A DNA stretch of 64,000 bases from an uncultured bacterium (GTDB taxonomy: Bacteria; Verrucomicrobiota; Kiritimatiellia; RFP12; UBA1067): positions 1,412-65,411 of the forward strand of contig CACXRO010000008.1 in the NCBI GenBank assembly GCA_902770045.1, in the 5' to 3' direction. The stretch's first letter is position 1. Each line of letters opens with the position of its first letter. Positions 1,603 to 7,400 of the stretch are shown here, piece by piece. A program made the translations under genes and the position numbers. Below the pieces are notes generated by a model. The model was not told the DNA's origin. It saw nothing but the letters and a program-made list of their open reading frames with translations, and ran no database searches.

Positions 1603-1611
1603 ATTATATCA
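1603..1611 (-). promoter_or_regulatory. extended -10 promoter candidate (TGATATAAT)
   Basis: The reverse complement of attatatca gives TGATATAAT, preceded by an A/T spacer. It lies about 100 nt upstream of the 1497 start. Confidence 0.3.
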
Positions 1612-1628: not shown

Positions 1629-3884
1629 CTACAGCAGGTTGCGCTGGATCTTGCCCGAGATGGTCTTGGGGAGCTCGTCCTTGAAGACCACGATGCGCGG
1701 ATACTTGTAGGGGGCGGTGTGCTCCTTGACGTACCGCTGCACCTCCTGCTTGAGGGTGTCGGTGCCCTGCACGCCCTTCACCAGCACGATCGACGCCTTC
1801 ACCACCTGTCCGCGCACCGGGTCGGGCGCGGCGGAAACGCCGCACTCGAGGACGAACGGCAGCTCCATGATGACGTTCTCGATCTCCGCCGGGCCGATGC
1901 GGTAGCCGGACGACTTGATGACGTCGTCGGCGCGGCCGACGTAGTGGTAATATCCGTTCTCATCCTTCCACGCCAGGTCGCCGGTGTGGTAGAAGCCGCC
2001 GCGCCAGACCTCGTCGGTCTTCTCCTCGTCCTTGTAGTAGCCGAGGAAGATGCCGGGATGCGGGTTCTTCCGGTCGGTGCGGACGACGATCTCGCCGTTC
2101 TCGCCAGGAGGCACCGGGTTGCCGTCTGCGTCGACGAGGTCGACTCCGTAGTCCGGCACCGGCTTGCCCATCGAGCCGGGCTCGAGCTCGTCGCCGAGCA
2201 AGTTGGCGAGCGAGAGCGTGGTCTCGGTCTGGCCGAAGCCCTCCGCGATCTCCAGCCCCGTCGCGCGCTCGAACTGGGTCCACACCTCCGGGTTCAGCGC
2301 CTCGCCGGCGGTGGTCGCGTGCCGGACGGAGGTGAAGTCGTACTTCGAGATGTCCTCCTTGATCAGCATGCGGTAGATGGTCGGCGGCGCGCAGAACGTC
2401 GTGATGTTGTACTTCTCGAACATCGGCAGCACCTTCTCGGCGTCGAAGCGCTCGAAGTCGTAGGTGAAGACCGCGCCCTCGCAGAGCCACTGCCCGTAAA
2501 ACTTGCCCCAGAGCGCCTTGCCCCAGCCGGTCTCGGAGATGGTGAAGTGGAGCCCGTCGCGCTCCACGAGATGCCAGTACTTCGCGGTCACGAAGTGCCC
2601 CAGCGCGTACTTGCAGCTGTGAAGCGCCATCTTCGGGTAGCCGGTGGTGCCACTGGTGAAGAACATGAGCATCGGGTCGCTGCCGCGCGGCGAGTCCGCC
2701 GTCCGCTCGAAGACGTCGGAGAAGCCCGGCACCTCGGCGTTGTAGTCATGCCAGCCCTCGCGCTTGCCGTAGACGAGCACCTTGACGAGCTTCGCGCCGA
2801 TCTCCTTCTCCGCGGCGTCCGCCTCGATCGCGACGTCGCCGTCGCCGGTGCAGAAAATCGCCTTCACGTCGCCCGCCTTGAACCGGTAGGTGAGGTCGTG
2901 CGCCTTGAGCTGGCTCGTCGCGGGAATCGCCACCGCGCCGAGCTTGTGGCAGGCGAGCATCGTCGGCCAGAACTGGAAGTGGCGCTTCAGGATCAGCATC
3001 ACCTTGTCGCCCTTGCCGATCCCGAGCGACTTCATGTAGTTGGCGACGCGGTTGGACTGCTCCATCATGTCCTTGAAGGTGAAGCGCCGCTCGCGCATGT
3101 GCGCCGAGACGTGCAGCATCGCCAGGCGGTTCGGGTCCTTCTTCGCGATCTCGTCCACGATGTCGAACGCGAAGTTGAACTCGTCGTCGTGCTCGTAGCG
3201 GATGTGGACGAGCTTGCCGTCGCCGTCCTCCTCGCACTTGACGAACTTCTCGGCCAGGAGCGGCTCGTTCGGCTTGCGGCGGCGCATCCTGACCATCGTC
3301 TGCGCCTGCTCCTCGGCGTCGCCGGCCATGATCATCGCGATGAAGGAGCAGCTCTTGCCGCCGACCGCCACCATGCCGTGGGGCGTCGAGGACTTGTAGA
3401 AGATCGAGTCGCCCTCCTTGAGCGTCTCCTCGTGGTCGCCCACCTTCACCCGCATCGAGCCGGAGACCACGAAGTCGAACTCCTGTCCGGCGTGGGTGGT
3501 GGTGTGGATCGGCGCGCGCTGCTGGCGCTCGTCGTAGTCGTAGGTCACGTAGTACGGCGTGGCGAGCCGGCCCTTGAACATCGCTGCCATGTTGCGGATG
3601 AGGATGCCGCGCTCGTTCACGGTCACCGGGCCCTGTCCGGCGCGGCAGACCTGGAAGTGCGAGAGCTTCGCGGTGTGGCCCTCGAGAAGCGCGTTGATGT
3701 CCACGCCGAACGCCAGCGAGCACTTGTGCAGGAAGGTGAACGGGGGGTCCATCGTCCCCGCCTCGATCGCGAGGTAGTCCCGCTCGTCCACGCCGGTCAG
3801 GCGGGCCATCTCCGACGGCGACTTGCCGCCGATCTCGCGCAGTTCCTTGATACGCGCGGCCATGCCCCTGAGTAGTTCGTTCAT
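1629..3884 (-). CDS. XRE-HTH + cupin domain fused to AMP-forming acyl-CoA synthetase
   Basis: 751 aa. HTH: SPSEMARLTGVDERDYLAIEAG. Cupin: GQEFDFVVSGSMRVKVGDHEETLKEGDSIFYKSSTPHG. Adenylate-forming motifs: FFTSGTTGYPKMALH, YHTGDLAWKDENGYYHYVGRADDVIKSSGYRIGPAEIE, SGKIQR. SD AAAGGAAAGG precedes the ATG at 3884. Confidence 0.85.
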   Translation of the reverse strand: MNELLRGMAARIKELREIGGKSPSEMARLTGVDERDYLAIEAGTMDPPFTFLHKCSLAFGVDINALLEGHTAKLSHFQVCRAGQGPVTVNERGILIRNMAAMFKGRLATPYYVTYDYDERQQRAPIHTTTHAGQEFDFVVSGSMRVKVGDHEETLKEGDSIFYKSSTPHGMVAVGGKSCSFIAMIMAGDAEEQAQTMVRMRRRKPNEPLLAEKFVKCEEDGDGKLVHIRYEHDDEFNFAFDIVDEIAKKDPNRLAMLHVSAHMRERRFTFKDMMEQSNRVANYMKSLGIGKGDKVMLILKRHFQFWPTMLACHKLGAVAIPATSQLKAHDLTYRFKAGDVKAIFCTGDGDVAIEADAAEKEIGAKLVKVLVYGKREGWHDYNAEVPGFSDVFERTADSPRGSDPMLMFFTSGTTGYPKMALHSCKYALGHFVTAKYWHLVERDGLHFTISETGWGKALWGKFYGQWLCEGAVFTYDFERFDAEKVLPMFEKYNITTFCAPPTIYRMLIKEDISKYDFTSVRHATTAGEALNPEVWTQFERATGLEIAEGFGQTETTLSLANLLGDELEPGSMGKPVPDYGVDLVDADGNPVPPGENGEIVVRTDRKNPHPGIFLGYYKDEEKTDEVWRGGFYHTGDLAWKDENGYYHYVGRADDVIKSSGYRIGPAEIENVIMELPFVLECGVSAAPDPVRGQVVKASIVLVKGVQGTDTLKQEVQRYVKEHTAPYKYPRIVVFKDELPKTISGKIQRNLL

Positions 3885-3926
3885 CTTCTCTTGCCTTTCC
3901 TTTTTGACTGAATTTCCGTTGTGTAG

Positions 3927-3962
3927 AAAAAACGCAGACCACCGGTCTTCCGGTGGTCTGCG
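3927..3962 (-). terminator. intrinsic terminator inside the 5' leader (attenuator candidate)
   Basis: Perfect 13-bp stem CGCAGACCACCGG/CCGGTGGTCTGCG with a 4-nt loop, followed on the minus strand by U6 (A6 at 3927-3932 on +). It sits between the promoter at 4083-4091 and the ATG at 3884. Confidence 0.6.
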
Positions 3963-3992
3963 TCCTGCCCTTCGGTTTCGCCCTGCCTGTCT

Positions 3993-4070
3993 TCAGGCGA
4001 CGGAACACGCGGCTGGCGTTAGACCACCAGGCCGTGTAATAATAATTCGAATGGCGAAACGGTTTCTCAT
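3993..4070 (-). CDS. candidate leader peptide MRNRFAIRIIITRPGGLTPAACSVA (25 aa)
   Basis: Hand translation. The ATG is 12 nt after the -10 hexamer. Four ATT Ile codons fall within five positions (I-R-I-I-I). The sORF covers the antiterminator segment at 4021-4031. No SD. Confidence 0.2.
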   Translation of the reverse strand: MRNRFAIRIIITRPGGLTPAACSVA

Positions 4071-4082
4071 CTGTTGGTGCGT

Positions 4083-4091
4083 ATTATATCA
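4083..4091 (-). promoter_or_regulatory. extended -10 promoter (TGATATAAT)
   Basis: The reverse complement of attatatca gives AATA-TGATATAAT. It is the only promoter-like element upstream of the acyl-CoA synthetase gene. Confidence 0.5.
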
Positions 4092-4132
4092 TATTCCGTT
4101 CACCCCGTGCGTAACAAAATGCTACATGACGC

Positions 4133-4190
4133 AATCTGCCGCGGAATCTGCCGCGGAGATTACTGTGCGAACGAAACCAAACTGCCGCGG
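4133..4190. repeat. CTGCCGCGG motif cluster (AATCTGCCGCGG x2 plus one more copy)
   Basis: AATCTGCCGCGG occurs twice in tandem at 4133-4156, and CTGCCGCGG again at 4182-4190. The same ATCTGCCGCGGAA(A/T)CTGCCGCGG block recurs at 59814-59838 and in degenerate form at 18565-18589. Confidence 0.6.
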
Positions 4191-4420
4191 GGCAGCAGGC
4201 ATGTGACGTAATCGCTCGGGGTGACGCATTGAAGTGCCGCCTCCGGGTATGCTCCCCGAAACGCCTTGCTGAACGCGCCGAAAGACGACAAATGCCTTTT
4301 CGTTCACCGACACCTCTTGCCCGATCTGGAGTGCCAGCGACCTCAGCAGCTTGTCCAGCAGCTCCGGCCGCTTTGTCACGTTCCTTGTCGGTGTTGTTTG
4401 TTGGTGCTGAAACTGTCCGC
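4160..4420 (-). pseudogene. degraded remnant of a DUF4143/AAA_14-type ATPase gene
   Basis: One minus-strand frame reads TRNVTKRPELLDKLLRSLALQIGQEVSVNE. Compare the intact paralogue at 18679..19827: RDVRRIVNIQDLDAFTVFMRLLAGRVGQLLNKDSLA. A second frame then reads FSKAFRGAYPEAALQCVTPSDY and stops at 4160 (compare LARFLKLSPNAVDPRVVYAGG). About 90 of 382 codons survive. Confidence 0.35.
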
Positions 4421-4454
4421 GACGACTCCCCAGGCCGCCGCGGAAAGCGCCGCG

Positions 4455-7400
4455 CTACTCGGCGAGCTTCAGGAAGTAGCTGCGGACGAGGTCGCGGTAC
4501 TCGGCGGGGATGTCCTTGAGGTCGCGCTCGCCCAGGCCGTCCTTCGCCGCACCCTTGATCTTGAACCAACCCAGGCGCTCCAGCAGCTGCCGCGCCGCCT
4601 CCGGGTCGTCATGGCGCTCCAGCTTGCGCGCAAGTTCCGAAATCTCCGCCGCCACCCCGCCGCCGCCGGACTGCGACTCCTCGCCAGACTGTCCTCTGGA
4701 CTCCATCTCGCCCTGCGACTGCCCCGACGACTGCTGCTCCTCGGGCATGCCCAGCGCCTTCGCCTGCCGCGCCGCCTCGCGCCGCATCGCCTCCGCCGCC
4801 TCCGCCGCCTTCGCGCCAACGGCACTGCCGCGGCAATCTGCCGGCGCGTCTGACTGCGACGGTTCAGAAGACTGCGACTGCTCAGAAGACTGTGACTGCT
4901 CAGAGGACTGCGACGACGCCGAAGATTGCGACTGTTCCGAAGACTGCGACTGATTGGCTGGCTGTGACGGCTCGGCGCGGGACTTTTCGCGCGCGGCGAG
5001 CTCCGCCTCGGCCGCCTTCCTCGCCTCGGACTGGCTGGCGACGGCGTCGTTCTTGGCGCTGTCGGCCGACATCGCGCCCTTCCTTTCCTCGGTCGCGGCG
5101 TGCTGGGCTTCCTTGGCCGCCTCTCCCGCCTCTGCCTGCTCCAGGAGGTCCTCGGCGCGGGCCTGCGCGGCGGCGGCCTGGCGCATAAGCTCTTCGCGCG
5201 CCTTGGCGTCGCCGTTCGCGCTGGCGTCGGCGATCTTCCTCTCCGCCTCCTTCTCGGCGGCGACGGCCTTGGCGAGCGCTTCGTCGCGGCGACGGGAGAG
5301 CTCGCTCTCCAGCCTTTCGAGCGCCTGGGCCTTCTTGTCTTCACTGAGGTTCCTGTTCGCGGCGGTCTGCAGCCGGCTCTTGAGCTCGTCCATCAATTCG
5401 GTGGCCCTGGACATCTTCCGGCGCGCGGAGTCGAGGTCGCCGTCCGGGACCTTCCGCGCGAGGTCGTTCGCCTGCATCGCCGCCGCCGTCTCCATGCGCT
5501 TCCACGCCTCGAGCTTGTTGGCGTCGGTGGGCTGTTCGCGGACGATGTCCTCGGCGGCGCGGGCAAGGGCTTCCTGGCGGGCCGCGAGGTCCCTGGTCTT
5601 CTCCAGGTTCTCGAGCTTCTGCACCCGCTCGCGGATCGGCGCGTCCATCTTCTGAAGAGCCTCCATCGCCTCGCGCATCTCTGCGGCGGCTGCCTCGAGC
5701 GCGTCGGCGCGGCGGGAAACCTCGTCGAACTGCGCGGACTCCAGCCGCTCCTGCGCCGGGGTAAGCTTCTCCTCGCGCACCGACTTGAGCATGTCGGCGA
5801 TCGGCTCGAAGCGCCGGTCCTCGCGAAGCCGCTCCTCGAGCTCGTCGACGCGGCGGCGCGCCTCGGACGCCTCGTGCACTGCGTTCTCAACGGCCCGGTC
5901 GGCGTTCTCCCTCACCTTCTGCTCGCGGCGGATCTGGTCCTTCGCCAGATTCGCCTGGCGGACCGCGTCGGAGAGCCGCCGACGCGCCTCCTCCAGCAGC
6001 CTGCGCGCGGCGGCGGCCTCCTCGGAAAGGCTCTGCATGTCGGGGCTCGCGGCGTTCATCTCGAGCTGCACCACGACCGGCGTCGACGTGGCGGCGTGGG
6101 GGCCGCCGCGCTCGACGGGGAAGCAGTCGCGCACCACGACGTCGAACGCGACTGTGCGCACGCCCGAGAGGTCGAGGGTGGAGAGGTCGATCTCGTCCGC
6201 CCCCTTCCAGAGCGAGGCGCCGGTCTTCGCGAACGAAGCCAGCGGCCGCAGCTCTTGCCAGCCGCCGCCGTCCGCCCGCCAGCGCAGCACCGCGTCGTCA
6301 ACTCCGATGTCGTCGCTTGCCGAGACCGCGAGCGGGAACTTGACGTACGGCGCGAGGCGCAGGGTCTTCGCCGCGGGTCGCTCCACGACCACGGTCGGCG
6401 GGGTGTCTAGGAAGCTCCTGAGCTGTCCGCCGCGGCGCGGCGCGGCGAAGCCCTCCTCGCCGACGAGGTCGAGCGTCCAGGACGACACGCGGTTGGAGAC
6501 CATCTCGTGGGCGTCGGCCGGGCGGCCGTCGACGCGCAGCGACGCCTTCACCGCGCGGCCGCCGAGGTCGAGCGCGAAGGAGACGCGCGAGCCCTCGACC
6601 GCCTCCATGGCGGACACGTCGTCGTTGGAGACCACGCTCGGCGAGCGGCCGGTGTAGGCGGGGTAGTCGATGCGCGCCGTGAACGACTCGTACCGCGGCA
6701 TTTCGCAGACGCGCACGGTGTAGTGGCGCGTGACCGCGGGCCCCGCGCTCACCCGGTAGCGCCACTCCGGCTCGGAGAGGTCCGCGATTGCCTCGTAGAC
6801 GCCGTCCTTCATCTCGTCGGCGAACTCCTCGCCCCAGCCGAGCGCGGTGCGGCGCGAGATGCGGATGCTCGGCGAATAGTGGAGGCCGTCGGCGACGGCA
6901 GCCTCGATGCGCACGACCGTGCCGGCGAGCGCGACGACGTCGCCCGGCTTCACGGCGATGTCGCCGGAGTAGAGGTTGCCGACGTCGACCCACGGCGCGA
7001 CCGCGCGCACGAAGAGCCGTCCCGCGAGATGCGGCGCAAGCACGAAGGAGAGGAGGAGCAGCAGCGCGATCGCGCCCAGCGCCTTCAGCCGCCGGATGAT
7101 TGTGCGGGAAGTGAACTCGCGCTCCGCGTCGACTGCCGCGGCCGCGACGGCGGCCTTGGCGGAGAGGATGCCGACCAAGGCCTCGGAGAAGCCGGGCCTC
7201 CCGTCGCCGCGCGCGGCGGAGTCCACGAGCTCGACCAGAGTCGTGAGGCACTCCTCGTGCTCGGGGTGGCGCGCGTCGAGGATCTTCGCCATCCGCCGCA
7301 CGTCGAGCCGGCGCGAGAGCGGACGCGCGAGGAAGAGCCACGCCGCCGCGAGGACGCAGGCGTATAGCGCGGCGGAAAGCAGCCAGCGCGCGGCGTCGGA

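What the first reader, a model, noticed from the sequence alone, without database searches (positions are those of the whole stretch)
3885..4092. Attenuator-like 5' leader upstream of the acyl-CoA synthetase gene
Reading the minus strand in order gives the following.
1. An extended -10 element, TGATATAAT (4083-4091).
2. Twelve nt later, a 25-codon sORF, MRNRFAIRIIITRPGGLTPAACSVA, with four ATT Ile codons within five positions.
3. Inside that sORF, CCUGGUGGUCU (4031-4021), which can pair with AGACCACC, the 5' arm of the downstream hairpin.
4. A perfect 13-bp GC-rich hairpin followed by U6 (3962-3927).
5. SD and ATG at 3884.

A terminator placed after a promoter and before the start codon, with a competing upstream pairing partner, is the classical attenuator or riboswitch layout. 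The Ile run suggests ribosome-mediated attenuation by Ile-tRNA supply. That would fit an enzyme activating a branched-chain acid such as 2-methylbutyrate for reductive Ile synthesis in anaerobes, but this last link is speculation. The leader matches no riboswitch class I recognise.
Basis: partly seen in the sequence, partly recalled or inferred. Interest (0 to 1): 0.6.

Follow-up and report, generated by a model that had tools for sequence, protein, structure and literature searches.

The report
Isoleucine-sensing leader before acyl-CoA synthetase gene
A short isoleucine-rich leader reading frame, followed by a competing hairpin pair, almost certainly switches on a 2-methylbutyrate-activating enzyme when this gut bacterium runs short of isoleucine, which points to the gene that lets such bacteria make isoleucine from a fermentation acid.

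Summary
The attenuator reading holds up against related genomes.

- **Leader conservation.** At least 14 diverged orthologous leaders keep the same layout: promoter, a 23-27-codon sORF that is 21% Ile, a hairpin terminator 20-36 nt after the stop, and a stretch inside the sORF that pairs with the terminator's 5' arm. The pairing sequences differ between lineages, so they covary.
- **Uniqueness.** It is the only Ile-run sORF plus terminator plus long ORF in the 2.27-Mb genome.
- **Translation start.** The sORF's ATG sits where this organism's many leaderless genes start.
- **Function.** The gene is an HTH-cupin-acyl-CoA synthetase fusion. Its closest solved relative, MacsMa (PDB 3ETC), prefers 2-methylbutyrate.
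- **Independent regulation evidence.** Clostridia orthologs carry T-box riboswitches directly upstream, with an Ile (AUC) specifier in 13 loci. Paralogs carry Val (GUA) T-boxes.
- **Gene content.** Within the genus, genomes with the synthetase lack IlvA and IlvC, and genomes without it have them (Fisher p about 1e-6 to 1e-8).

The mechanism is classical leader-peptide attenuation. What is new is the phylum (Kiritimatiellia/PVC) and the target gene. No experiment or transcript-end data were available, so Ile-dependent read-through is inferred.

The parts
4083..4091 (-). Extended -10 promoter element TGATATAAT; no clear -35.
   Evidence: Read. The same TGNTATAAT(AC) consensus occurs 387 times in the genome. 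It is conserved in type-1 orthologous leaders.
3993..4070 (-). Leader sORF of 25 codons plus TGA (MRNRFAIRIIITRPGGLTPAACSVA). The ATG lies 12 nt after the -10, so it is probably translated from a leaderless or near-leaderless transcript.
   Evidence: In orthologs the spacing is 8-10 nt, which falls in the genome-wide peak for leaderless genes: 164 of 387 promoters have an ATG 6-10 nt after the -10, and about 90% of those open ORFs of at least 60 codons.
4038..4052 (-). Regulatory codons ATT CGA ATT ATT ATT (Ile at codons 7, 9, 10, 11). The stretch contains the palindrome ATTCGAAT.
   Evidence: Ile runs are conserved in 14 diverged leaders. ATT is the rare Ile codon here: the synthetase gene uses 33 ATC and 2 ATT, whereas the leaders use 55 ATT, 15 ATC and 3 ATA.
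4007..4037 (-). Local hairpin P_a (4037-4025 pairs with 4018-4007). It acts as a 'protector' that sequesters the antiterminator strand when no ribosome is stalled.
   Evidence: MFE fold. It is mutually exclusive with the antiterminator.
4021..4031 (-). Antiterminator 5' strand CCUGGUGGUCU. It pairs with AGACCACCGG (3959-3950), the 5' arm of the terminator.
   Evidence: Duplex -20.6 kcal/mol against -11.3 +/- 2.5 for shuffles. The equivalent pairing is present in 12 of 14 leaders with different sequences. Cognate pairs average -17.9 and non-cognate pairs -12.3 kcal/mol, p = 2e-6.
3975..4006 (-). Hairpin P_b with the sORF stop codon (3995-3993) at its apex. It forms the tip of the long antiterminator hairpin.
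3927..3964 (-). Intrinsic terminator: 13-15-bp GC-rich stem, loop AAGA, then U6.
   Evidence: dG -29.7 kcal/mol. An equivalent hairpin lies 20-36 nt after the sORF stop in 14 of 14 leaders; L094 lacks the U-rich tail.
3885..3900 (-). Purine-rich ribosome-binding region (GGAAAGGCAAGAGAAG) before the structural gene's ATG at 3884.
1629..3884 (-). Regulated gene: a 751-aa fusion of HTH_19 (XRE), Cupin_2, AMP-binding and AMP-binding_C. It is a probable 2-methylbutyrate-CoA ligase.
   Evidence: Pfam. NCBIfam best hit is MbcS at 440 bits, below the 850 cut-off. PDB 3ETC MacsMa matches at E = 3e-180 over residues 234-748, and its preferred substrate is 2-methylbutyrate (PMC10455477).
1603..1611 (-). 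Next promoter (TGATATAAT), 17 nt after the synthetase stop codon. The synthetase is therefore most likely a single-gene unit.

Best explanation
This is a ribosome-mediated (leader-peptide) transcription attenuator that senses charged tRNA-Ile and controls a single-gene unit. That unit encodes an HTH-cupin-acyl-CoA synthetase that most likely activates 2-methylbutyrate.

**Start of the transcript.** Transcription starts a few nt downstream of the TGATATAAT -10. The 25-codon sORF is translated from the almost leaderless 5' end.

**When Ile-tRNA is plentiful.** The ribosome runs through codons 12-25, which form the whole 5' strand of a long antiterminator hairpin, and stops at the TGA at that hairpin's tip. 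The antiterminator cannot form or is split. The local hairpin P_a re-forms behind the ribosome, the 13-15-bp terminator plus U6 forms, and transcription ends at about 3927-3932.

**When Ile-tRNA is scarce.** The ribosome stalls on ATT codons 7-11. Its leading edge reaches about 4031-4034, which masks the 5' side of P_a but leaves CCUGGUGGUCU free. That strand captures the terminator's 5' arm as it emerges, and RNA polymerase reads through into the synthetase gene.

**Downstream pathway.** The enzyme makes 2-methylbutyryl-CoA. A 2-oxoacid:ferredoxin oxidoreductase reductively carboxylates it, and a class-IV aminotransferase converts the product to isoleucine. This organism lacks the IlvA/IlvC route.

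**Shown:** the sequence elements, their conservation and covariation, the gene-content pattern and the T-box parallel. **Inferred:** the transcription start, translation of the sORF, the stalling geometry, Ile-dependent read-through, and the enzyme's substrate and pathway role.
For: **1. Anatomy.** It is exactly as described.

**2. Conservation.** Fourteen distinct orthologous leaders were compared, from 99% down to 55% protein identity and including another family of the order. All carry a 23-27-codon sORF at -170 to -220 with Ile runs. The remainder of the peptide diverges. Ile is 21% of codons against 4.7% in the enzyme, P about 4e-21. The other two reading frames give 1.7% and 3.4% Ile.

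**3. Terminator.** All 14 have a strong hairpin 20-36 nt after the stop.

**4. Antiterminator.** It lies inside the sORF, 2-6 codons after the last Ile codon, and is significant in 12 of 14 leaders. Cognate pairs beat non-cognate pairs, p = 2e-6.

**5. Ribosome masking.** Before the 3' arm is made, the antiterminator is the MFE structure; once the 3' arm is present, the terminator wins. This is the signature of a kinetic switch. With ribosome masks, the energy advantage of the antiterminator in the window's leader is 7.9 kcal/mol free, 12.0-15.6 when stalled at the Ile codons, and 6.3 at the stop. In type-2 leaders it is 3-9 free, up to 17-25 stalled, and 3-4 at the stop.

**6. Uniqueness.** It is the only such element in the genome.

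**7. Translation plausibility.** 164 of 387 promoters have an ATG 6-10 nt after the -10.

**8. Paralog contrast.** The ~68%-identical group-B copies have no such leader.

**9. T-box parallel.** Clostridia orthologs (61-63% identity) have T-box leaders above Rfam's gathering score directly upstream. The specifier is AUC (Ile) in 13 loci. Tandem paralogs and more distant copies carry GUA (Val). The divergent leuA-like gene carries CUC (Leu).

**10. Gene content.** In the genus: ACS+/IlvC- 22, ACS-/IlvC+ 21, both 5, neither 1, p = 4e-8. For IlvA: 16, 12, 3, 0, p = 3e-6. None of the 9 leader-bearing genomes among the 31 genus genomes searched for IlvA has it, and only one of the 14 leader-bearing genomes has IlvC.

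**11. Rest of the pathway.** The own genome has an operon of a sodium:solute symporter family transporter with OFOR delta, alpha, beta and gamma subunits, and one class-IV aminotransferase. In several relatives the synthetase sits next to the OFOR alpha subunit.

**12. Closest structure.** 3ETC MacsMa prefers 2-methylbutyrate.
Against: - There is no experimental or transcript-end evidence. The available metatranscriptomes are held only as assembled contigs of related strains. One lone 200-nt contig over the leader (3915-4115) reaches about 40 nt upstream of the predicted start, so it does not support that start.
- In the window's leader the antiterminator strand lies 8 codons before the stop, so a ribosome parked at the stop does not cover it directly. 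The discrimination rests on a wedge/kinetic argument.
- In four close relatives (L092, L094, L011, L123) the simple masking model does not separate 'stalled' from 'at stop'.
- The window's ATG is 12 nt from the -10, at the tail of the leaderless distribution, and has no Shine-Dalgarno sequence.
- ATT CGA ATT is invariant at nucleotide level in type-1 leaders and is palindromic. This hints at an additional DNA- or RNA-level function, such as an operator for the enzyme's own HTH domain.
- The gene-content anti-correlation may partly reflect two subclades rather than many independent events. The MAGs are 56-93% complete.
- The substrate is inferred from homology. The MbcS model is hit below its cut-off.
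Confidence: 0.78

Rival explanations
1. The conserved core is a DNA operator. The synthetase's own N-terminal HTH-cupin domain binds the palindrome ATTCGAAT just downstream of the promoter and represses transcription in response to a ligand. The Ile codons are a by-product of the AT-rich operator, and the hairpin is a constitutive partial terminator.
For: The protein carries HTH_19 and Cupin_2 domains. ATT CGA ATT (ATTCGAAT, 4052-4045) is invariant at nucleotide level in all seven type-1 leaders, while neighbouring codons change. Its position, about +25 from the start, suits a roadblock repressor.
Against: Type-2 leaders and L124 lack the palindrome yet keep the Ile runs, sORF, antiterminator and terminator. 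Ile codons vary synonymously among ATT, ATC and ATA, which conserves the amino acid and not the DNA word. Only 7 ATTCGAAT sites exist in the genome, and none lies at another promoter. Clostridia orthologs carry the same HTH-cupin domains and are still controlled by Ile T-boxes. This could still be a second layer of control on top of the attenuator.
Confidence: 0.08
2. The leader is a ligand- or protein-binding riboswitch that is not translated. A metabolite or an RNA-binding protein chooses between terminator and antiterminator.
For: Terminator and antiterminator alternatives exist, and the leader folds well (z = -5.6). No transcript or translation data exist.
Against: There is no Rfam match. 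No conserved sequence or structure core exists outside the Ile codons, and two quite different leader types serve the same gene. What is conserved is an open frame of fixed length, its stop position and its Ile codons, which makes sense only if the frame is read by ribosomes.
Confidence: 0.04
3. The sORF is an independent small gene for a hydrophobic peptide, with its own promoter and terminator. The synthetase is transcribed by read-through or from another promoter.
For: Promoter, sORF and terminator together form a complete small transcription unit. One metatranscriptome contig covers only the leader.
Against: The peptide sequence is not conserved apart from Ile content. The unit is always directly upstream of group-A synthetase genes and is never found elsewhere in the genome. 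The in-sORF complement to the terminator arm covaries. No separate promoter is seen between 3927 and 3884.
Confidence: 0.03

Closest known systems
Leader-peptide attenuators of branched-chain amino-acid operons in Proteobacteria (E. coli/Salmonella ilvGMEDA, ilvBN, leu leaders; from established knowledge)
   Same: A short leader ORF holds a run of codons for the end-product amino acid. About a dozen more codons follow, whose RNA forms the protector/antiterminator strands, then an intrinsic terminator precedes the structural gene. The window peptide's tail (IIITRPGGLTPAACSVA) even resembles the layout of the ilvGMEDA leader (…IIIPPCGAALGRGKA).
   Different: The phylum differs (Kiritimatiellia, PVC group). 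The sORF is leaderless or near-leaderless, with no Shine-Dalgarno sequence. The leader is rich in Ile (some type-2 leaders also carry a Leu run) rather than mixed Ile/Val/Leu. The regulated gene is a carboxylic-acid-activating enzyme of a salvage or reductive route, not an ilv/leu biosynthetic operon. No sequence homology and no Rfam match.
Leader-peptide attenuators outside Proteobacteria: Actinobacteria amino-acid operons (PMC1262725), the S. aureus ilv Leu-rich attenuator peptide (PMC5794164), the Listeria ilv leader (PMC5864092)
   Same: They use the same mechanism class and show that it occurs in several phyla. Some actinobacterial leader ORFs are also leaderless (own knowledge).
   Different: Those control canonical BCAA, Trp, Cys or other biosynthetic operons. 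No literature search here returned a leader peptide for an acyl-CoA synthetase or for any PVC bacterium.
T-box riboswitch (RF00230) with Ile specifier upstream of the orthologous gene in Clostridia
   Same: It has the same regulated gene family, the same sensed signal (charging of tRNA-Ile) and the same output (terminator versus antiterminator).
   Different: The sensor is entirely different: direct tRNA binding rather than ribosome stalling. The window has no T-box. This is functional convergence, not homology.
MacsMa (M. acetivorans, PDB 3ETC) and S. aureus MbcS, which are 2-methylbutyrate-preferring acyl-CoA synthetases
   Same: The catalytic domains match. 3ETC aligns at E = 3e-180 over residues 234-748. 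MbcS is the best NCBIfam model. Both enzymes prefer 2-methylbutyrate (PMC10455477, PMC10026030).
   Different: The window's protein carries an extra ~200-aa N-terminal HTH plus cupin module. The MbcS score of 440 is far below the equivalog cut-off of 850. MbcS feeds branched-chain fatty-acid synthesis, whereas the role proposed here is Ile synthesis.

Membership tests
Ribosome-mediated (leader-peptide) transcription attenuator | A short ORF in the 5' leader, positioned so that it can be translated | tested here: met
   A 25-codon sORF lies 12 nt after the -10. Orthologs have 8-10 nt, which is the spacing of this genome's leaderless genes. ORF length and stop position are conserved in 14 leaders. 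Translation itself has not been observed.
Ribosome-mediated (leader-peptide) transcription attenuator | Clustered codons for the regulating amino acid | tested here: met
   The window has 4 Ile in 5 codons. Across 14 leaders Ile is 73 of 344 codons (21%) against 4.7% in the enzyme, with synonymous variation among ATT, ATC and ATA.
Ribosome-mediated (leader-peptide) transcription attenuator | An intrinsic terminator between the leader ORF and the structural gene | tested here: met
   The stem is -29.7 kcal/mol and is followed by U6 at 3964-3927. An equivalent hairpin is present in 14 of 14 leaders; L094 lacks the U-rich tail.
Ribosome-mediated (leader-peptide) transcription attenuator | A mutually exclusive antiterminator whose 5' strand lies in or just after the leader ORF | tested here: met
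   4031-4021 pairs with 3959-3950. The pairing is significant in 12 of 14 leaders and covaries. Cognate beats non-cognate at p = 2e-6.
Ribosome-mediated (leader-peptide) transcription attenuator | The ribosome's position (stalled versus at the stop) selects the structure | tested here: inconclusive
   In-silico masking favours the antiterminator on stalling in the window (12.0-15.6 against 6.3-7.9 kcal/mol) and in type-2 leaders, but not in four close relatives. This is an equilibrium model only.
Ribosome-mediated (leader-peptide) transcription attenuator | Read-through responds to supply of the charged tRNA | not testable with these tools
   This needs reporter, Term-seq or in-vitro coupled assays. 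The public RNA runs are held only as contigs.
Known Rfam leaders and riboswitches (including T-box RF00230 and the Leu/Thr/Trp/His leader families) | A match to the family covariance model at its gathering score | tested here: not met
   The best hits in 3700-4500 have E = 6.7-9 and score far below gathering.
MbcS (NF047394, 2-methylbutyryl-CoA synthetase equivalog) | A score above the curated equivalog cut-off (850 bits) | tested here: not met
   The score is 440.5 bits. MbcS is the best-scoring model but falls below the cut-off. The protein is a relative, not an equivalog.
MacsMa-type medium/branched-chain acyl-CoA synthetase | Close full-length similarity of the adenylate-forming domains to the characterised enzyme | tested here: met
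   3ETC matches at E = 3.1e-180, 604 bits, residues 234-748 against 53-570. The next hit scores 357 bits. Substrate preference itself was not tested.

The most novel reading that the evidence does not exclude
The HTH-cupin-acyl-CoA synthetase family, widespread in rumen and gut Clostridia and Kiritimatiellia and so far uncharacterised, may be the missing entry enzyme of reductive branched-chain amino-acid synthesis from fermentation 'isoacids'. Paralogs would be specialised for 2-methylbutyrate (Ile) and isobutyrate (Val). Each paralog is wired to the charging level of the matching tRNA, through T-boxes in Firmicutes and through an independently evolved leaderless Ile leader peptide in Kiritimatiellia. 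The Kiritimatiellia that carry it have lost the ilv pathway and depend on cross-fed isoacids for isoleucine.
Probability: 0.55. Interest if true: 0.75.

Novelty: new member of a known kind. Interest (0 to 1): 0.62.

Why it matters
Rumen microbiologists have known since the 1960s that many fibre-degrading and gut anaerobes need isobutyrate, 2-methylbutyrate and isovalerate, and that they carboxylate them to Val, Ile and Leu. The genes for the activation step are poorly assigned.

An amino-acid-specific attenuator works as a built-in functional label. Here the label says 'isoleucine', and the T-boxes on orthologs (Ile) and paralogs (Val) in another phylum carry matching amino-acid labels. This gives a testable annotation for a large family of fusion enzymes. 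It explains how gut Kiritimatiellia that lack IlvA and IlvC can obtain Ile, and it predicts a dependency on isoacid cross-feeding, which is relevant to isoacid feed supplements.

It also extends leader-peptide attenuation to the PVC group. It gives a clean example of two unrelated RNA mechanisms converging on the same gene and signal. Finally, it shows that this organism starts most of its transcripts at the start codon.

Tried and rejected
- **Rfam scan.** An E-value-mode scan of 3700-4500 found only chance hits.
- **Repeat or mobile element.** A search of the own genome showed that only the 20-nt promoter word recurs. It turned out to be the general promoter consensus.
- **Metatranscriptomes.** Runs that hold the region exist only as Logan contigs of related strains. 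No transcript ends could be read. The lone leader-only contig extends upstream of the predicted start.
- **Equilibrium folding of the complete leader.** It always favours the terminator whatever the ribosome mask, so it cannot test the switch. Truncated-transcript and energy-difference calculations were used instead.
- **Other leader peptides in this genome.** A scan for Leu, Val, Thr, His, Trp, Phe and other runs followed by a terminator and a long ORF gave only noise.
- **An ATTCGAAT operator regulon.** None was found.
- **Citramalate synthase as an alternative Ile route.** It is absent from the genus above cut-off. The weaker hits look like LeuA and occur mostly in IlvA-positive genomes.
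- **Literature.** Four searches returned no description of a leader peptide or T-box in front of an acyl-CoA synthetase, and no attenuation reported in Verrucomicrobia/PVC.
- **OFOR operon and group-B paralog.** Neither has an attenuator. The OFOR operon has a plain promoter, and group B follows a homoserine-dehydrogenase-like gene by 10 nt.
Full report
**1. Observation**

Reading the minus strand of 3700-4500 confirms every element at the coordinates given:

- TGATATAAT lies at 4091-4083.
- A 12-nt spacer follows, then ATG at 4070.
- The 25-codon sORF is MRNRFAIRIIITRPGGLTPAACSVA, ending in TGA at 3995-3993.
- ATT codons are at 4052-4050 and 4046-4038.
- CCTGGTGGTCT lies at 4031-4021.
- A perfect 13-bp stem (3962-3950 / 3945-3933, loop AAGA) is followed by T6 (3932-3927).
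- A purine-rich stretch precedes the gene's ATG at 3884.

The 197-nt leader folds to -74.4 kcal/mol, 5.6 sd below dinucleotide shuffles. An E-value-mode Rfam scan returns only chance hits.

**2. The regulated gene and its surroundings**

ORF 1629-3884 (-) is a 751-aa fusion of HTH_19/XRE, Cupin_2, AMP-binding and AMP-binding_C. Its best NCBIfam model is MbcS, the S. aureus 2-methylbutyryl-CoA synthetase, but at 440 bits against a cut-off of 850.

The closest solved structure by a wide margin is 3ETC (E = 3e-180, 604 bits; the next hit scores 357). 3ETC is MacsMa of Methanosarcina acetivorans, whose preferred substrate is 2-methylbutyrate (PMC10455477). MbcS likewise prefers 2-methylbutyrate and isobutyrate (PMC10026030).

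Seventeen nt after the synthetase stop lies another TGATATAAT promoter (1611-1603) for the next gene. The synthetase is therefore most likely a single-gene unit.

**3. The promoter and the start of the sORF**

The genome has 64.7% G+C. It contains 387 TGNTATAAT sites among 540 TATAAT, with a consensus of roughly wwT-TGGTATAAT-ACGC and no obvious -35.

In 164 of the 387 sites an ATG follows 6-10 nt after the -10, with a peak at 7-8. About 90% of those ATGs open ORFs of at least 60 codons. Leaderless mRNAs are therefore the commonest arrangement in this organism.

The sORF ATG is 12 nt from the -10 in the window. In the type-1 orthologous leaders it is 8 nt (L092, L094, L011, L123) or 10 nt (L095, L096). 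That is the position where genuine genes start. This makes translation of the sORF plausible without a Shine-Dalgarno sequence.

**4. Comparative evidence for the attenuator**

The organism is a gut/rumen Kiritimatiellia (record titles). The synthetase has two paralog groups in the genus. I fetched 350 nt upstream of 40 copies in addition to the loci. Fourteen distinct group-A leaders carry an Ile-rich sORF of 23-27 codons at -170 to -220. No group-B copy (~68% identity) does.

Examples:

| Locus | Leader peptide |
|---|---|
| L011 | MTRNIIIRIIIGLDGCRSAGYSVA |
| L123 | MNAIAIIRISIIICGCGSAGMAVG |
| L095 | MKFMPDIRIITPPGGLRPSGRLAA |
| L097 | MNTSIIISAEIIIAIANRGVVRRI |
| L099 | MNTNLLLNLGLNIAAIIISRGVVGCR |
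| L015 | MNRSINSINITIAAIVHRGVACRC |
| L124 (55% protein identity, another family) | MAPARSGRQVSIIAIADIIIATRAAA |

Ile makes up 73 of 344 codons (21%) against 4.7% in the enzyme. The other two frames of the same DNA give 1.7% and 3.4%. The Ile codons vary among ATT (55), ATC (15) and ATA (3), whereas the synthetase gene itself uses 33 ATC and 2 ATT. Selection therefore acts on the amino acid read in this frame, with a preference for the rare wobble-read codon.

All 14 leaders have a strong hairpin (-16 to -30 kcal/mol) 20-36 nt after the sORF stop; L094 lacks the U-rich tail. In 12 of 14, a segment of the sORF lying 2-6 codons after the last Ile codon pairs with the terminator's 5' arm significantly better than shuffled sORFs do. 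The sequences that achieve this differ:

- GGUGGUCU:AGACCACC in the window.
- UGGUGGU(C)UCAGA:UCUGAACCACC in L095.
- GAUCCGCC:GGCGGAUC in L011, L092 and L123.
- CGCGGGGUUGU:ACGGCCCCGC in type 2.

Cognate sORF/arm pairs average -17.9 kcal/mol, against -12.3 for pairs taken from different sequence groups (p = 2e-6).

A scan of the whole genome looked for ATG-sORFs with amino-acid runs followed by a terminator and a long ORF. This element was the only Ile case, and it had the strongest terminator of all candidates.

**5. Two leader designs**

Type 2 (L097-L102, L015) has a TTGACA-17-TGGTATCAT promoter and a 20-30-nt 5' UTR. Its 1:2 / 2:3 / 3:4 layout is textbook:

- The Ile codons sit in a small hairpin.
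- Region 2 (CGCGGGGUUGU) follows.
- The stop codon is 5 codons later, so a terminating ribosome covers region 2.

Type 1 includes the window and is leaderless. In the window, codons 14-25 form the entire 5' strand of a long antiterminator hairpin. Its outer helix is 4030-4021 with 3959-3950. Its apex is hairpin P_b, which contains the stop codon. The competing state is local hairpin P_a (4037-4025 with 4018-4007), plus P_b, plus the terminator.

**6. Mechanism and how far it was tested**

With the whole terminator present, equilibrium folding always gives the terminator. With the transcript cut before the 3' arm, the antiterminator is the MFE structure. This is the pattern expected of a kinetically decided switch.

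I measured how much free energy the 5' arm gains by pairing upstream, under different ribosome footprints (A-site -15 to +12):

| Leader | Free | Stalled at Ile codons | Ribosome at stop |
|---|---|---|---|
| Window | 7.9 | 12.0-15.6 | 6.3 |
| Type 2 | 3-9 | up to 17-25 | 3-4 |

All values are in kcal/mol.

A ribosome stalled at Ile codon 10 reaches about 4031, exactly the base of the antiterminator, while masking the 5' side of P_a. This supports the model given under best explanation.

In four close relatives (L092, L094, L011, L123) the calculation does not separate 'stalled' from 'at stop'. The geometry of the window (region 2 lies 8 codons before the stop) needs the argument that a ribosome at the hairpin's apex prevents the helix from closing. 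I mark this step as inferred.

**7. Independent evidence that the gene answers to isoleucine**

Rfam scans of the loci holding Clostridia orthologs (61-63% identity) found T-box leaders above the gathering score directly upstream of the synthetase in about 20 loci. I read the specifier by its fixed position: codon, one nt, the 4-nt 3' strand of the basal helix, N, GAG. I checked this reading on the cmscan alignments.

- The specifier is AUC (Ile) in 13 loci: L029, L031, L034, L037, L039, L040, L045, L046, L050, L054, L056, L057, L061.
- It is GUA (Val) in L065, L066 and L069, and in front of a tandem second paralog in L021, L022 and L035.
- The divergently transcribed leuA-like gene has a CUC (Leu) T-box.

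The same enzyme family is therefore controlled by tRNA-Ile charging in a second phylum, through an unrelated RNA mechanism.

**8. Why an Ile signal on an acid-activating enzyme**

Within the genus, presence of the synthetase is almost the mirror image of the ilv pathway:

| Marker | ACS+ / marker- | ACS- / marker+ | Both | Neither | Fisher p |
|---|---|---|---|---|---|
| IlvC (TIGR00465), 49 genomes | 22 | 21 | 5 | 1 | 4e-8 |
| IlvA (TIGR01124), 31 genomes | 16 | 12 | 3 | 0 | 3e-6 |

- Two of the three 'both' genomes for IlvA (G015, G023) have synthetase copies without an Ile sORF.
- Of the 14 leader-bearing genomes, only G025 has IlvC. The IlvA search covered 9 of them, and none has it.
- Citramalate synthase is absent above cut-off in the genus. 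LeuA-like hits occur mainly in IlvA-positive genomes.
- The own genome encodes an operon of a sodium:solute symporter with 2-oxoacid:ferredoxin oxidoreductase delta, alpha, beta and gamma subunits, and one class-IV aminotransferase.
- In G015, G023 and some family-level relatives the synthetase lies next to the oxidoreductase alpha subunit.

This fits the known reductive carboxylation route from 2-methylbutyrate to Ile, which has been proposed for example for a rumen methanogen (PMC2812497).

Caveats: the MAGs are incomplete, and the pattern may reflect few evolutionary events.

**9. Rivals**

An operator for the enzyme's own HTH domain is suggested by the invariant palindromic ATT CGA ATT of type-1 leaders. 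It cannot explain type-2 leaders, the synonymous Ile-codon variation or the T-box parallel. No other ATTCGAAT site lies at a promoter. It may be an added layer of control.

A non-translated riboswitch, or an independent peptide gene, fits the pattern of conservation poorly.

**10. Novelty**

The mechanism class is classical. It is known in Proteobacteria, Actinobacteria (PMC1262725) and Firmicutes (PMC5794164, PMC5864092).

Four literature searches returned no leader peptide or T-box described for an acyl-CoA synthetase, and no attenuation reported in Verrucomicrobia/PVC. These negatives are limited to the open-access library.

I classify the element as a new member of a known kind. Its main value is as a functional label for an uncharacterised, widespread enzyme family, and as evidence for isoacid-dependent Ile synthesis in gut Kiritimatiellia.

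Noticed in passing
whole genome; e.g. window 1603-1611(-), 4083-4091(-): Promoters in this 65% G+C genome follow a strong extended -10 consensus (wwT-TGGTATAAT-ACGC, 387 sites) with no evident -35. In 164 of them an ATG lies 6-10 nt after the -10, and about 90% of those open long ORFs. Leaderless mRNAs therefore appear to be the dominant gene-start mode in this Kiritimatiellia.
   Followed up: partly
own genome contig C12:14337-18510 (outside the window): There is an operon made of a plain promoter, a 517-aa sodium:solute symporter, and 2-oxoacid:ferredoxin oxidoreductase delta, alpha, beta and gamma subunits. It is a candidate uptake and reductive-carboxylation partner of the synthetase. It has no attenuator.
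   Followed up: partly
own genome contig C16:20719-22983 (outside the window): A second HTH-cupin-synthetase paralog (group B, 68% identity) starts 10 nt after the stop of a gene ending in an ACT domain, probably homoserine dehydrogenase. It has no leader. Its substrate and regulation are unknown.
   Followed up: partly
L021:3815-4062, L022:3826-4066, L035:3785-4021; L024:808-1033(-) and similar loci: In Oscillospiraceae and other Clostridia, two HTH-cupin-synthetase paralogs sit in tandem. The second one is behind a Val (GUA) T-box. A divergent leuA/cimA-like gene is behind a Leu (CUC) T-box. Together they form a small cluster wired to branched-chain amino acids.
   Followed up: partly
window 4045-4052(-): ATT CGA ATT, containing the palindrome ATTCGAAT, is invariant at nucleotide level in all seven type-1 leaders although the neighbouring codons diverge. 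Possible explanations are an operator for the enzyme's own HTH domain or a rare-codon pause. It remains unexplained.
   Followed up: partly
window 3915-4115: One sheep-gut metatranscriptome (run X8) yields a lone 200-nt contig that covers only the leader and none of the gene. However, it extends about 40 nt upstream of the predicted transcription start. It could be a short leader transcript from a relative, read-through, or DNA carry-over.
   Followed up: no
L010:1-1500 and L093 (G006:C36): In two relatives with 91-93% identical synthetases, the gene has no Ile leader and is directly preceded by the 3' end of another AMP-binding-type gene in tandem.
   Followed up: no
L099/L101 and L098 leaders: Some type-2 leader peptides carry a run of CTT Leu codons upstream of the Ile run (MNTNLLLNLGLNIAAIIIS). 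This may mean dual Leu/Ile sensing, or the Leu run may be irrelevant because it lies far from the switch helices.
   Followed up: no
L046:1004-1076; L030:30-95: There is a Gut-1 RNA (RF01706) hit just upstream of the Ile T-box in one Clostridia locus, and a group II intron fragment in another.
   Followed up: no
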